Shown: positions 10,712 to 15,607 of the stretch, in pieces
How positions within the stretch are numbered: position 1 is the stretch's first letter
Layout of the letters: each line of letters opens with the position of its first letter
NCBI RefSeq assembly: GCF_009914755.1
Contig: NC_060940.1
Source: the human T2T-CHM13v2.0 reference genome, Homo sapiens
Direction: 5' to 3' (one strand)
DNA: 64,000 bases
Position numbers and translations under genes: made by a program
Notes under the pieces: generated by a model
What the model was told of the DNA's origin: nothing
Seen by the model: only the letters and a program-made list of their open reading frames with translations
The model's database searches: none

Positions 10712-10971
10712 ACATGTAGGGGGTACTTGGTGGAACAGTAGTAGGAACTGTAACCAGAAAATGGGAGAGTTTCAAATGCCAGAATAAAGGGCTTGCAGTT
10801 TATTTGGAAGGTTTCTGAGCAGAGTAGTCCACCCTTTCAAGAGTTTGTGACAATGGAATCATCTGGATGTGGGATGCTTTTGTTTTCAAAGTTCACAGAG
10901 CCTCAACTTCTAAACATCTTCATATACATACATAAATAAATGCATGATACATCCACACATATGTTTCAAGC

Positions 10972-12952
10972 TTTTTTTCCAGATTAAAAAATGATACTTT
11001 ATTATAATTTTTAAAATTGCAGAACGTCAGGCTGAATATCATTAGACACATACACAAAACCACTCATCTCTAAAGTCATCTTCTATACCCTCTCAAAATT
11101 TGGCCAATGAATTATGCCTCAGGGAATTTTCCAGTTCAACCCCATACATAAATGGAAACACTAGCCTTTTGGTTTTGCCCACAGTTCCAAAGTGCTATTA
11201 CAGGTGGAGTATCTGCTGCAGGAGGTCATTCTTGCTGCTGTGGGTGTGAGTAAAATGTCTATCTGTATGCCTCTGGTCCTGCAGGCTTTGTTCTCTTTCT
11301 CCTTGTTTGGTCTCCTTCTACAGGGGTTACCTTACATACTGCAATCAAAAGACATCTTCTGCTCGGAATCAAAACAGATAGTGAGAGGTTCAAGTGAGAA
11401 GTAATGTTACATAGTAAGTTACTGAATTTACAATGAGAAATTGAACTCTGGGGTTACAACTCAAATATGATTTCAAGGTAAAGAAAATAATTACTTGGCT
11501 GGCTGGTGAAATGCTTAGTTCCTTCTAAAATCATAATTGCAATATGGACTTCTGCTTCATGCTGCATTCCAAGGCACCAATCAGGTAACCTACATCTCCC
11601 AAATGATCAACAGAGCGTTCCTTCCTATTTTACCCTCAGTGCTGAGAAATTACTCCTGAGCCCAGAAGTTGTTGTGTAGGTGACTTGGGTGACTTGGTGC
11701 CCAGGCAACAACTGCCACAGGCCCCACCTTGATGAACACCATTGATTTCTTTAAATATGATGATACTAAGATGGAGGCCCCTGCTCAGAGGAAGCAAGGA
11801 CGTAAAAGCCAGGACAGGCTGCGCTGAGGGTCACTACACTAACAGACCCAGACGACACGATGGAACGTGAATACTGAAGCCAACAATCTTCTGGAACTCT
11901 CTTTTCCAAAACTCATATGCTGTTTTTTCTAATTGGGAAATCAGGGACAGGGAAACATTCGCATAATTACCCACCAACATGTTCTTCTTAACAGAAATGA
12001 AGATTATTATTATTTTTTTTTTGAGACAGACTGTTGCTTTGTCGCCCAGGCTCGAGTTCAGTGGCGCAATCTCAGCTCACTGCAAGCTCCGCCTCCCGGG
12101 TTCACGCCATTCTCCTGCCTCAGCCTCCCGAGTAGCTGGGACTACAGGCGCCTGCCACCACGCCCGACTAATTTTTTGTATTTTTAGTAGAGACGGGGTT
12201 TCACCGTGTTAGCCAGGATGGTCTCGATCTCCTGAACTCGTGATCCGCCCTCCTCAGCCTCCCAAAGTGCTGGGATTACAGACATGAGCCATCGTGCCCG
12301 GCTCCACTTTGGTTTTTTCTAATCGGTTCAGGATCTCATTTACTTTCTTCTCCATTGTCACAATTTTTACATCCTTCTGCCTGTGAAAGCCTATCTGCCT
12401 CACATCCACGTCAGCTGTTTTCTTCAGGTTAGACCGTGGAGTATTTACCACATTAACGTTGTTCTTGCAGCCTTGAGTGCTATTGGCCTTCACAAGGTGG
12501 GCGCAGTCTGTCAGCACTTCCTTTGGAATGTCCTCTATATTCTCTCCCTTATGCAATTGAAGGTATACATGAGCCAAAGAGAGTCTGTCCGCACGAAACC
12601 AGATATATTCAGGCCAGCCATGCTTCATCAGATCTTCATGATGATTTATGGGTTAGTAGGAGAGATATAAAACTCAAGGGCCGGGCGCGGTGGCTCATGC
12701 CTGTAATCCCAGCACTTTGGGAGGCTGAGGTGGGCGGATCACGAGGTCAGGAGATTGAGACCATTCTGGCCAAAATGGTGAAACCCTGTCTCTATTTCAT
12801 ATTTATCCTTTCCCATGTAAATAGCGCAGGCAGATGAATTAACGCTGCTGCTGGTGAAGTAGAACACCATGATGCTGGCGGGGGTGCGGTGACTCCACCG
12901 TGGAGCAGCAGCGTTCAACTGTGGCGGTTGCCTGGTCCCCGGAACTCTCCTC
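10972..12952 (-). pseudogene. Processed pseudogene of CCDC25, interrupted by Alu sequences and partly deleted
   Basis: ATG at 12870 gives [25 protein letters not shown], then [14 protein letters not shown]...HLVKANS...EKTKVE (to 12303); AATAAA at 11003-10998 and a short poly(A) at 10972-10978; identity of 11010-12000 as 3' UTR is inferred. Confidence 0.88.
12003..12302 (-). mobile_element. AluY inside the CCDC25 retrocopy, no TSD seen
   Basis: AluY diagnostic positions; joins CCDC25 ...KTKVE directly to presumed 3' UTR. Confidence 0.85.
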
Positions 12953-14817
12953 TTTTTTTTTTTTTAATGCATTATGGAAACTTTTTTATGTGATTTTTGT
13001 ACATAAGGAATATGAGAGTAACTCTTTTACAAATGAAACTAATTTACTAGAACAAACAGTGACAAAACTGAACTGATATTTGATGTGAATCCATAGGAGT
13101 TTAAGCTTCAAATCCAGCCAAGAAATTTGTTACAACTCCATCAGCTTTGCATCTGAGTCTTCTGAGATCTTTCCATCAGCCCTGATAGTGCCCAACAGGG
13201 CTTAGCGCTGGCTGACAACATGAGACAAGAAAGCATTCTCAAACTTTGTAATCTTGCTGGGCTCCAGTTTATCAAGATACCCCCTTACACCCGCACAGAT
13301 AACAGCCACTTGTTGTTCAGTAACCATGGGAGGATACTGTCCTTGCTTCAGCAACTCAGTTAGACGCACACCGCGACTCAATAGTTGTTGAGTGGGAGCA
13401 TTGAGGTCAGAACCAAACTGGGCAAAAGCAGCAACCTCACGATCCTGAGCCAATTCCAGCTTCATGGTACCTGCCGCCTGCTTCATAGTCCTGGTTTGGG
13501 CAGCAGATCCAACACAAGACACAGACAGACCCAATGTTAATGGCAGAGCGGATATCTTTGTAGAACAATTCTGTTTCCAAGATCTGTCTGTCAGTGATGG
13601 AAATGACATTCGTTGGAATGTAAGCAGACACATCATCGGCCTGTGTTTCTATGACTAGCAAAGCAGTCAAGGAGCCACCACCAAAAGCATCATTCATTTT
13701 GGCTGCTCTCTCCAGCAACCGGGAGTATAGGTAAAACACATCACCAGGACAGGCCTTACGACCAGGGGGTTCGGTGGAGCAACAGAGACATCTGACAGTA
13801 AGCGACAGCCTGTTTGGATAAGTCGTCATAGATGACCAAAGTATATTTGCCATCGTCTCTAAAATACTCTCCCATGGAACAGTCAGAGTAAGGAGCCAGG
13901 TACTGAAGTAGGGCAGCATCTGAGGCCATAGCTGACACCACAGTGGTGTACTTCACGGCATCTGCATCTGTAAGTCTCTTCACCAACTGAGCAACAGTGG
14001 ATCTCTTTCGACCAATAGCAACATAGATACAGTACAGCTTCTTCTTTTCTTCAGATCTATCATTGAAATGTTTCTGGTTAATGATTGTGTCAATAGCAAT
14101 TGAGGTTTTCCCAGTCCTTCGGTCACCAATAATGAGCTCATGCTGACCACGACCAATTGGCACCAAGCTATCCACAGCCTTAATGCCAGTCGGCATGGGT
14201 TCCCACACTGAAGTTCGAGGAATGATTCTGGGGGCTTTCAGACCGACTCACTTATGGGTCTTGGAACCCATTGGACCCTTTCCATCAATAGCATTACCAA
14301 GGGCATCAACTACACGACCCAACAGCTCCTCACCGACTGGAACGTCCACAATGGTTCCTGTCCTCTTCACTATACCTCCTTCCTTACTTTATTATTTTCA
14401 AACACTACAATGCCAACATTGTCAGTTTCGAAGTTCAAGGACATATCCTTTAAGCCTGAAGAAAACTCTACCATTTCTTCTGCTTGGAACATTCCTCAGC
14501 CCATGTACATGGACAATACCATCACCAATACTTAAGACATGCCCAGTTTCTTCAAGGTCAGCAGAGGTATCAGCTCCAAGAACATGCTCTTTAAGAATAG
14601 AGGACATCTCAGCAGTCCCAGTCTTCTGAAGATGAGTGTTAGAGGCATGGAGGTTCCTTGCAGCAATGAAAGATGAACCCAAAGCATTTCTGGAGACCAG
14701 TCCTGCCCACCGAGTGAGGTCACGGGCTACGGCCGCGGAGACACACACAGACAGCATCTTTGCAGTTTCTCCACAGGTGGTACCTCCACAGCCGCAGCCT
14801 CTGGACTGACTGGGACC
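12953..14817 (-). pseudogene. ATP5F1AP3: Processed pseudogene of ATP synthase F1 alpha (ATP5F1A); probably ATP5F1AP3
   Basis: Intronless MLSV...(ATG 14757), [29 protein letters not shown]; original stop 13101-13103; several frameshifts and a premature TAA at 13202-13204; 5' UTR and poly(A) (T13 at 12953-12965) retained. Confidence 0.93.
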
Positions 14818-15607
14818 GTTTCAAGCATTTTTAAATGAAACCTGATGTTGATGAAATCTCTGAAAGTCAAGTCAGGTATCTTACACAATGCTGTAATTTC
14901 ATTTCAATCCTTTTCATAAAGGGTAAAGTCCTTGTATATATTCTTTCAATACATGATTTATCTAAGACACAAGCACTCTATCAATAAAAGTTTTAATTTA
15001 AACGACCAAAAAATTGGTGAGAGAGTGCTCAGAACTGAGGATAAACATGTAAGTAGTTTTTTGTCCCAGATGAGCAATGATTTATGTTGACTAAGGTGTG
15101 CTGAATTAACTTATTCCATTAAAGTGTAAAGGGAAGACAGGTTGATAAGCATAACTTTTACCTTGATAAATGTTTTCAATGATTTCTATTGCATGTAGAC
15201 TGAAACACCTAGCATGTAAATTATTGCAGTAGAATCTGTCTCTAAGTCTCAGCTGGGTCTGTGAATTTGTTCTAATTTGATAGCTTCATACAACTGATGA
15301 AGCTCAAAAATGGCTTGACTCAAGATATTTCATACACCTTTCTTTTGCTCTAATTTCTGCTACGACAATAACCCAGCTATTTCAGCTGATGGCGGGAACA
15401 CTGCAACTGGACAAAAATGACACGGATGGGTGTAGAGCCTCCAAACAATAAGTATCTGATTAATGCTGTTGACACCTAAGTCTACAGAGGCTATTCTCCA
15501 ACGGCCAGGACATCATTAGGTAAGACATTTCAAAATTCTTCGTGAGGGCACGATTGCTTCAGAGGACTACAAAGTGACACATTAGGTCGTCATAAATCAC
15601 CGCAGTA

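What the first reader, a model, noticed from the sequence alone, without database searches (positions are those of the whole stretch)
10963..14832. Chimeric two-mRNA retrocopy: ATP5F1A and CCDC25 inside one target-site duplication
Seen: on the minus strand, a full-length ATP5F1A retrocopy (5' UTR to A13) runs with no spacer into the 5' UTR of a CCDC25 retrocopy, which ends in AATAAA and a short poly(A). The whole 3.85-kb unit is flanked by gtttcaagctttttt (10963-10977) and gtttcaagcattttt (14818-14832), a 14/15 match. The 5' copy lies at an L1 endonuclease site (minus TT/AAAA). I see no copy of this TSD at the internal junction. Established: L1 ORF2p template switching makes chimeras, mostly snRNA fused to L1, Alu or mRNA. 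Inference: one insertion event copied CCDC25 mRNA to its 5' end and then jumped to the poly(A) of ATP5F1A mRNA. Annotation typically notes only the ATP5F1A part.
Basis: partly seen in the sequence, partly recalled or inferred. Interest (0 to 1): 0.85.

Follow-up and report, generated by a model that had tools for sequence, protein, structure and literature searches.

The report
Two-mRNA chimeric processed pseudogene (ATP5F1A + CCDC25)
A dead copy of the ATP5F1A messenger RNA and a dead copy of the CCDC25 messenger RNA lie head to tail inside one pair of insertion scars, most likely because the LINE-1 copying enzyme jumped from one mRNA to the other during a single insertion about 30-40 million years ago.

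Summary
On the minus strand, a full-length spliced ATP5F1A copy (14816-12967, 12 exons, 92.9% identical to chr18) ends in A13. It runs with no spacer into a CCDC25 copy (12952-10978, parent on chr8) that starts about 115 nt before the ATG. The 3.85-kb unit is flanked by a 14/15 direct repeat at an L1 endonuclease site, and no third copy lies inside. Substitutions specific to this copy are alike in both parts: 3.4-5.3% for ATP5F1A and 4.0% for CCDC25 (Fisher p 0.14-0.48). Best reading, about 0.68: one L1 insertion in which the reverse transcriptase finished CCDC25 mRNA and jumped to the poly(A) of ATP5F1A mRNA. Main rival, about 0.22: CCDC25 inserted later into the A-tail of an older ATP5F1AP3. 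That needs almost all A's 3' of CCDC25 to have vanished while A13 survived. Primate orthologues, the decisive test, were out of reach. This is a new member of the known class of template-switch chimeric retrogenes.

- An AluY replaces about 592 nt.
- 248 nt of 3'UTR are now absent from the parent.
- A 155-nt block sits exactly between exons 2 and 3. It is an antisense AluY piece plus 40 nt of CCDC25 intron 2 in inverted orientation, and it is unexplained.

The parts
14818..14832 (-). 5' copy of the target-site duplication, AAAAATGCTTGAAAC. The plus strand reads CATTTTT/AAATG here, an L1 endonuclease-type site.
14817..14817 (-). Extra G before the first parental base. chr18 has T at this position. 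It is compatible with a non-templated or cap-derived base at a full-length 5' end.
12967..14816 (-). ATP5F1A processed pseudogene (RefSeq ATP5F1AP3). All 12 exons are joined. Against the spliced parent it is 92.9% identical, with 8 internal indels and 2 in-frame stops (codons 171 and 520).
12953..12966 (-). [quoted passage not shown] It is not encoded at the chr18 locus and forms the internal junction.
12795..12952 (-). CCDC25 retrocopy, 5'UTR plus exons 1-2. It starts at parental GAGGAG, about 115 nt before the ATG. A 24-nt gap against chr8 lies at 12921/12920.
12640..12794 (-). 155-nt block exactly between exon 2 and exon 3. It is an antisense AluY left arm (12794-12680) plus a 40-mer (12678-12639; its last base, 12639, is shared with the first base of exon 3) that equals chr8 CCDC25 intron 2 in inverted orientation.
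12303..12639 (-). CCDC25 exons 3-6 and the first 70 nt of exon 7. The ORF fragment matches PDB CCDC25 at E 1e-60.
12010..12302 (-). Full-length sense AluY with an A10(TAA)n tail. It takes the place of about 592 nt of CCDC25 mRNA sequence: the rest of exon 7, exon 8 and 413 nt of exon 9. It has no TSD. An endonuclease-type site lies at its 3' junction.
10978..12009 (-). CCDC25 3'UTR (last exon), with AATAAA at 11003-10998. It includes 248 nt (11505-11258) absent from today's chr8 but present in the chr1 retrocopy.
10963..10977 (-). 3' copy of the target-site duplication, AAAAAAGCTTGAAAC. At most 1-2 untemplated A's lie between it and the mRNA end.

Best explanation
The unit is one L1-driven target-primed reverse transcription event that used two unrelated mRNAs in turn.

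Proposed steps:
1. L1 endonuclease nicked the plus strand at CATTTTT/AAATG.
2. The T-run primed on the very start of the poly(A) of a CCDC25 mRNA. This was an isoform with an extra Alu-containing exon.
3. ORF2p copied that mRNA to, or close to, its 5' end.
4. ORF2p then jumped end-to-end onto the poly(A) tail of an ATP5F1A mRNA and copied it to its cap.
5. The cDNA was joined at a staggered second nick, which duplicated 15 bp of target.

Shown: the anatomy, the single TSD, the endonuclease site, and equal divergence of the two parts. Inferred: that the two copies arrived together, and the order of copying.

Later, an AluY insertion deleted about 592 nt of the CCDC25 part. Both copies are dead.
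For: - Both parts are spliced, same-strand copies of genes on different chromosomes, chr18 and chr8.
- A13 sits at the parent's cleavage site and is not genome-encoded.
- The CCDC25 5'UTR begins at the next base and aligns to the promoter-proximal region of chr8.
- A 14/15 direct repeat abuts both outer ends. It is unique in the window at one mismatch or fewer, and absent inside the unit at three or fewer. In the null test 4 of 3000 pairs scored as high.
- No repeat flanks either part alone, apart from A-runs. The best match for ATP5F1A alone is 6/7, and for CCDC25 alone 9/10, made of A's.
- The endonuclease site is TTTTT/AAA.
- Copy-specific substitutions for ATP5F1A are 76/1443 (5.27%; non-CpG 4.30%) with a chr9 copy as third sequence. 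With the chr14 copy they are 57/1666 (3.42%; non-CpG 3.00%). For CCDC25 they are 47/1181 (3.98%; non-CpG 3.64%). Fisher p is 0.14-0.48.
- A very short terminal tail is also seen in the equally old, independent chr1 CCDC25 retrocopy, so it is not odd for this mRNA.
- Purified ORF2p adds non-templated bases and makes 'copy of template1 + copy of template2' concatemers in vitro (PMC10830420, passages read).
- Chimeras of cellular transcripts fused to each other, including mRNAs, inside direct repeats are described (PMC2104539, passages read).
Against: - Simultaneous arrival was not shown, because no primate orthologue could be examined.
- The divergence test is weak. The non-CpG rate ratio ATP5F1A/CCDC25 is 1.18 (about 0.80-1.74) with the chr9 copy, and 0.82 (about 0.55-1.24) with the chr14 copy. 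These limits are my own calculation from the counts. A gap of some 10 million years between two events would pass.
- The terminal poly(A) is almost nil, which is unusual for TPRT.
- Published chimeras typically have a 5'-truncated 3' partner and a small RNA such as U6 as 5' partner. One study states that template switching seems restricted to a few snRNAs (PMC4476161, passages read).
- The true CCDC25 transcription start is not known to me, so 'copied to the cap' is an inference.
Confidence: 0.68

Rival explanations
1. Two events. ATP5F1A mRNA was retroposed first, creating the TSD seen today. Later a CCDC25 mRNA was retroposed in the same orientation into the A-tail of that pseudogene. Its own target-site duplication therefore consists only of A's and cannot be seen.
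For: - A-tails give good L1 endonuclease sites. Here the opposite strand reads T13/AATGCAT.
- The only repeat that could flank CCDC25 alone is an A-run.
- The divergence test cannot exclude a moderate age gap.
Against: - This model predicts, 3' of CCDC25, its own tail, plus the A-only duplication (as long as the A's left of it, up to 13), plus the rest of the old tail.
- Observed are 7 A's in all. Five or six of them belong to the outer TSD and 2 may be templated. So at least 12 A's must have been lost cleanly on one side while a pure A13 survived on the other.
- Point estimates of age are equal.
Confidence: 0.22
2. A pre-formed chimeric RNA was retroposed as a single template. The ATP5F1A poly(A) end would have been joined to the CCDC25 5' end by RNA ligation or trans-splicing.
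For: It gives the same DNA anatomy as template jumping. RNA ligation by RtcB has been shown to precede U6/L1 chimera retrotransposition (PMC6789731; only the start of the abstract was seen in a search listing).
Against: - The junction is tail-to-5'-end and not exon-to-exon, so splicing is excluded.
- A capped mRNA 5' end and a 3'-OH poly(A) end are not RtcB substrates. This is recalled biochemistry, not tested here.
Confidence: 0.05
3. The composite arose in some other two-step or DNA-level way. Examples are endonuclease-independent capture of an ATP5F1A cDNA exactly at the 5' edge of an older CCDC25 retrocopy, or duplication from a composite elsewhere.
For: None specific.
Against: - There is no T-rich site and no repeat around ATP5F1A alone.
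- Exact placement between the TSD and the first CCDC25 base would be a coincidence.
- No other composite copy exists in the genome. The only other CCDC25 retrocopy (chr1) has its own TSD and no ATP5F1A.
- The flanks are unique.
Confidence: 0.04

Closest known systems
Chimeric retrogenes made by L1 template switching (Buzdin/Gogvadze type; U6-L1, U6-mRNA, Alu-L1 and others)
   Same: Two transcripts are fused in the same orientation, the 5' partner is full length, and the unit is flanked by one 10-20 bp direct repeat at an L1 endonuclease-type site. mRNAs are among the listed partners (PMC2104539).
   Different: Here both partners are polyadenylated mRNAs. The 3' partner is not 5'-truncated, so the switch was at or near its 5' end. 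The 5' partner brings its own poly(A) into the junction. The usual 5' partners are U6 or U6atac without a tail (PMC4476161). The original list of 82 human chimeras (PMC169886) is not held, so I could not check whether this locus is on it.
ORF2p template jumping in vitro
   Same: Purified ORF2p continues one cDNA on a second template after reaching the end of the first, giving concatemers, and it adds non-templated bases (PMC10830420).
   Different: That is a test-tube result with short templates. This locus would be a natural, fixed product with two full mRNAs.
PIPSL-type co-retroposition
   Same: One retrocopy holds the sequence of two genes (PMC2773790, abstract start in a listing; PMC3747384, passages read).
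   Different: PIPSL comes from a read-through, spliced transcript of neighbouring genes with an exon-exon junction. Here the parents lie on chr18 and chr8, and the junction is poly(A) to 5'UTR.
Nested retroelement insertions in A-tails
   Same: Head-to-tail elements separated only by A's.
   Different: Nested insertions should leave A's on both sides of the inner element. Here they are found on one side only.
Alu retrotransposition-mediated deletion (for the sense AluY at 12302-12010; name recalled, no paper read)
   Same: A full Alu with an endonuclease-type site at its 3' junction, no TSD, 2-3 nt of overlap at its 5' junction, and target sequence missing.
   Different: The 'target' here is itself a retrocopy, so the loss is measured against the parent and a sister retrocopy and not against an empty allele.

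Membership tests
L1-mediated processed pseudogene (each part) | Colinear copy of the spliced mRNA without introns | tested here: met
   ATP5F1A: 12 of 12 exons are joined. CCDC25: exons 1-7 and the last exon are joined, apart from the inserted blocks.
L1-mediated processed pseudogene (each part) | Poly(A) at the parent's cleavage site, not encoded in the parent locus | tested here: met
   ATP5F1A: A13 follows ...ATGCAT(T), where chr18 continues agttg. CCDC25: the copy ends at the parental CTGGAA, but only 1-2 untemplated A's lie before the TSD.
Chimeric retrogene by L1 template switching (criteria as listed in PMC2104539) | The 5' part is a full-length copy of a cellular RNA | tested here: met
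   The ATP5F1A copy starts at the first base of the chr18 exon-1 match, with one extra G.
Chimeric retrogene by L1 template switching (criteria as listed in PMC2104539) | The 3' part is a 5'-truncated copy | tested here: not met
   The CCDC25 part reaches about 115 nt upstream of the ATG, into the CpG-rich promoter-proximal region. That is 56 nt further than the chr1 retrocopy. This feature describes the usual cases and is not required by the mechanism.
Chimeric retrogene by L1 template switching (criteria as listed in PMC2104539) | Both parts are joined directly in the same orientation | tested here: met
   A13 is followed at the next base by the CCDC25 5'UTR. Both parts are on the minus strand.
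Chimeric retrogene by L1 template switching (criteria as listed in PMC2104539) | One pair of short direct repeats flanks the whole unit, at an L1 endonuclease-type site | tested here: met
   A 14/15 repeat abuts both ends, no inner copy exists, and the site reads TTTTT/AAA.
Chimeric retrogene by L1 template switching (criteria as listed in PMC2104539) | Poly(A) tail at the 3' end of the chimera | tested here: inconclusive
   There are 7 A's, of which 5-6 are TSD and 2 may be templated.
Chimeric retrogene by L1 template switching | Both parts arrive on the same branch of the species tree, with an empty site in outgroups | not testable with these tools
   No primate genomes are held. The flanks are unique in the genome, so no paralogous empty site exists. 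As a proxy, copy-specific divergence is equal within error.
Co-retroposed read-through transcript (PIPSL type) | Parent genes adjacent on one chromosome and joined exon to exon | tested here: not met
   The parents lie on chr18 and chr8, and the junction is poly(A) to 5'UTR.
Alu retrotransposition-mediated deletion (sense AluY only) | An Alu with an endonuclease-type 3' junction, no TSD, and loss of adjacent target sequence | tested here: met
   The parental sequence TTAAAATAAT|CTTC lies at the 3' junction, which reads ATTATTTT/AAG on the other strand. About 592 nt present in chr8 (581 nt in chr1) are missing.

The most novel reading that the evidence does not exclude
The locus records more than one jump. 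In this reading the CCDC25 template itself came from a now-extinct allele. In that allele an antisense AluY insertion in intron 2 had picked up, by a template jump at the Alu's 5' end, a copy of nascent intron-2 RNA, and the composite was then spliced in as an exon. The sense AluY may also belong to the original mosaic and not to a later insertion. The 3.85-kb unit would then be a fossil of a germ line with repeated ORF2p template jumping. It would also preserve an exon and an allele that no longer exist in the parent gene.
Probability: 0.1. Interest if true: 0.7.

Novelty: new member of a known kind. Interest (0 to 1): 0.5.

Why it matters
Natural chimeras of two complete, polyadenylated mRNAs inside one target-site duplication are rarely documented. 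Catalogues concentrate on U6-L1 and other L1-containing chimeras.

Such a locus is in-genome evidence for two points. First, ORF2p can finish one mRNA and re-initiate on the poly(A) of another. Second, trans-mobilised mRNAs can sit together in one retrotransposition complex. This matches the end-to-end template jumping recently shown in vitro.

It also matters for annotation. RefSeq names only ATP5F1AP3 here, so the CCDC25 half is unlabelled.

The CCDC25 half preserves ancestral states of the parent, and this shows how retrocopies can serve as fossils of lost alleles and isoforms:
- 248 nt of 3'UTR that chr8 has since lost;
- an Alu-containing exon not encoded in today's gene.

The locus has no sign of function. 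Both reading frames are broken.

Tried and rejected
- Paralogous empty site. Both 300-nt flanks hit only themselves in the genome, so no uninterrupted copy of the target exists to show a single TSD copy.
- Buzdin et al. 2003 (PMC169886), which lists the human chimeras, is not held. I cannot say whether this locus is in that list.
- Literature searches for ATP5F1AP3, ATP5A1P3, ATP5AP3 and CCDC25P1 found 5 papers, of which 3 were listed. To judge by their titles and the starts of their abstracts, all are incidental gene-list mentions. Searches on chimeric retrogenes and retrocopies gave no report of this locus.
- Dating the two Alus. A consensus from all 28 Alus in my loci mixed subfamilies and was dropped. 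The 8 closest copies gave only rough values: sense Alu 18/281 differences, 8 of them CpG; antisense piece 9/115, 6 of them CpG.
- Source of the antisense Alu piece. The two Alus in today's CCDC25 intron 2 are not the source (77.5% and 85.7% identity; the second is S-type with an unrelated flank).
- Models rejected for the 155-nt block:
  - Lariat read-through, because it permutes order but does not invert the strand.
  - Twin priming, because there is no T-rich primer and sense exons lie on both sides.
  - A later TPRT insertion, because there is no tail, no TSD and no endonuclease site in either orientation.
  - Gene conversion from chr8, because the orientation and the part of the intron are wrong.
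Full report
WHAT IS THERE. I read the window on the minus strand from 14832 to 10963. The order of features is:
- AAAAATGCTTGAAAC
- an extra G
- a complete spliced copy of ATP5F1A mRNA (14816-12967)
- T + A13 (12966-12953)
- a copy of CCDC25 mRNA (12952-10978)
- AAAAAAGCTTGAAAC

The window lies on chr16 of a genome I could search. 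The ATP5F1A part matches 12 consecutive exons at chr18:46275109-46289251, at 82.6-97.5% per exon. After I set the exon edges by their GT/AG signals, the joined exons encode a 553-aa protein. Against that spliced parent the copy has 131 mismatches in 1843 bases (92.9% identity), 8 internal indels and two in-frame stops. One ORF fragment hits mitochondrial ATP synthase alpha chains in PDB at E 1e-84. The A13 sits at the parental cleavage site and is not encoded in chr18.

THE CCDC25 PART. It matches the chr8 gene at 28012429-28050016:
- exons 1, 2, 3, 4, 5 and 6
- the first 70 nt of exon 7
- the last exon from chr8 28013209 to the mRNA end

Identities are 88.9-95.7% in the exons and 90.7-91.8% in the 3'UTR. 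The joined parental exons encode 208 aa. A retrocopy ORF fragment matches PDB CCDC25 at E 1e-60. The first base after A13 aligns to GAGGAG, about 115 nt upstream of the ATG in the CpG-rich promoter-proximal region of chr8. So there is no spacer and no room for a repeat at the junction.

THE REPEAT. The two 15-mers match 14/15 and abut the outer ends. In the 64-kb window they are the only 2 of 12 hits with one mismatch or fewer, and no hit at three or fewer lies inside the unit. Random flank pairs at the same spacing reached 14 matches anywhere in 40 x 46 nt in 4 of 3000 trials. That null includes repeats and ignores the exact abutment. The best 'repeat' around ATP5F1A alone is 6/7. Around CCDC25 alone it is 9/10 and consists of A's. 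At the 5' copy the plus strand reads CATTTTT/AAATG, an L1 endonuclease-type site.

AGE TEST. I counted substitutions unique to the chr16 copy in three-way alignments (parent, chr16 copy, a third copy).

| Part | Third sequence | Unique to chr16 copy | Non-CpG |
|---|---|---|---|
| CCDC25 | chr1 retrocopy | 47/1181 (3.98%) | 3.64% |
| ATP5F1A | chr9 copy | 76/1443 (5.27%) | 4.30% |
| ATP5F1A | older chr14 copy | 57/1666 (3.42%) | 3.00% |

In the CCDC25 comparison the chr1 copy has 45 unique changes and the parent 32. The third sequence there is an independent retrocopy at chr1:39587397-39589441, which has its own TSD AAAATCCCAGAT and skips exon 4. Fisher tests against the CCDC25 counts give p 0.14-0.48. 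The two parts are therefore equally old within error. The limits are wide, though: the rate ratio is about 0.55-1.74 across the two third sequences. About 4% on one lineage suggests some 30-40 million years at recalled primate rates. That fits the AluY content.

ONE EVENT OR TWO. The serious rival is a CCDC25 insertion into the A-tail of an older ATP5F1AP3, where the inner duplication would be A's only. The literature names this alternative for multi-part chimeras (PMC4476161). It predicts A's on both sides of CCDC25. On the 3' side these would be its own tail, plus a duplicate of the A's seen on the 5' side, plus the rest of the old tail. Observed are 7 A's in all. Five or six belong to the outer repeat, and two may be templated by the mRNA end CTGGAA. 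A pure A13 survives on the 5' side. Under the one-event model only a short terminal tail is needed. The equally old chr1 CCDC25 retrocopy also has almost no tail beyond its TSD. I therefore put one event at about 0.68 and nested insertion at about 0.22.

MECHANISM. ORF2p adds non-templated bases and continues a cDNA on a second template in vitro (PMC10830420). Chimeras of cellular transcripts inside one direct repeat are a described class that includes mRNAs (PMC2104539). Two points are unusual here. The 3' partner is not truncated. The 5' partner is a full polyadenylated mRNA that brings its tail into the junction. Published cases are mostly U6 fused to truncated L1 (PMC4476161). A recent census treats only L1-containing chimeras (bioRxiv 10.1101/2025.02.02.635956, passages read). 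A read-through origin of the PIPSL type is excluded, because the parents lie on different chromosomes and the junction is tail-to-5'UTR.

(a) A full-length sense AluY (12302-12010) replaces about 592 nt of mRNA sequence: 133 nt of exon 7, exon 8, and 413 nt of exon 9. The chr1 copy holds 581 nt there. The parental sequence at its 3' junction is TTAAAATAAT|CTTC, which reads ATTATTTT/AAG on the other strand. There is no TSD, and 2-3 nt overlap at the 5' junction. This is the pattern of an Alu insertion with target deletion, most likely after the retrocopy had landed.

(b) 248 nt of 3'UTR (11505-11258) are present in both retrocopies but absent from chr8, between CATTT repeats. The parent lost them later.

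(c) 24 nt of 5'UTR are missing relative to chr8.

(d) A 155-nt block lies exactly between exon 2 (ends 12795) and exon 3 (starts 12639).

THE 155-NT BLOCK. It has two parts.
- An antisense AluY left arm. It starts right after the Alu's cryptic acceptor, ...tttttag|TAGAGAC. The position of that acceptor is recalled. The block ends at Alu base 1.
- Forty bases that occur only twice in the genome at three mismatches or fewer: here, and at chr8:28042322-28042361.

That chr8 site is CCDC25 intron 2, 213-252 nt past the exon-2 donor, but on the strand opposite to the gene. On that chr8 strand a possible donor, CAA|GTAAC, lies 4 nt past the block's end. No Alu is at that place in today's chr8. The two intron-2 Alus are not the source.

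The exact exon edges and the acceptor position argue that the block was spliced in as an exon. Yet today's gene does not encode it in that orientation. My best guess is an extinct allele with an antisense AluY insertion that carried an inverted copy of intron RNA at its 5' end. That would itself be a template-jump chimera. The guess is untested, and I list the block as unexplained.

VERDICT. The locus is a new member of a known class, it has no function, and RefSeq annotates only half of it. The decisive test is presence or absence of the two parts in primate orthologues.

Noticed in passing
window 12640-12794 (minus strand); chr8:28042322-28042361: A 155-nt block lies exactly at the exon 2/3 junction of the CCDC25 retrocopy. 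It is an antisense AluY left arm plus a genome-unique 40-mer from CCDC25 intron 2 in inverted orientation. Its edges look like splice junctions, but today's chr8 does not encode such an exon and has no Alu at that place. Unexplained.
   Followed up: partly
window 12010-12302 (minus strand): A full-length sense AluY takes the place of about 592 nt of the CCDC25 copy. An endonuclease-type site lies at its 3' junction, there is no TSD, and 2-3 nt overlap at the 5' junction. This is the pattern of an Alu insertion with target deletion.
   Followed up: partly
window 11258-11505; chr8 near 28012714-28012721: 248 nt of CCDC25 3'UTR are present in both the chr16 and chr1 retrocopies but missing from the parent gene, between short CATTT repeats. 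The parent seems to have lost them after both retropositions.
   Followed up: partly
L041 (chr1:39584001-39592000), retrocopy at chr1:39587397-39589441 plus strand: A second, independent CCDC25 processed pseudogene. It has its own TSD AAAATCCCAGAT, skips exon 4, has a 5' end 56 nt downstream of the chr16 copy's, has almost no poly(A), and shows the same copy-specific divergence (45/1181).
   Followed up: partly
window 12920/12921 (minus strand): A 24-nt gap in the CCDC25 5'UTR relative to chr8 (GAGTCTGGTATCCTGAGCTTCGTG is absent). It is either a deletion in the copy or an insertion in the parent. The chr1 copy starts just after this point.
   Followed up: no
L018-L021 (chr9:41016075, 43963492, 78490793, 39667573): Four ATP5F1A retrocopies on chr9 are all truncated at the same point (query base 405) and are nearly identical in their counts. 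They look like one retrocopy multiplied by segmental duplication. Copy-specific divergence is about 5.5%, similar to the chr16 copy.
   Followed up: no
window 14817 (minus strand): An extra G lies before the first parental base of the ATP5F1A copy, where chr18 has T. This is as expected for a non-templated or cap-derived base at a full-length 5' end.
   Followed up: no
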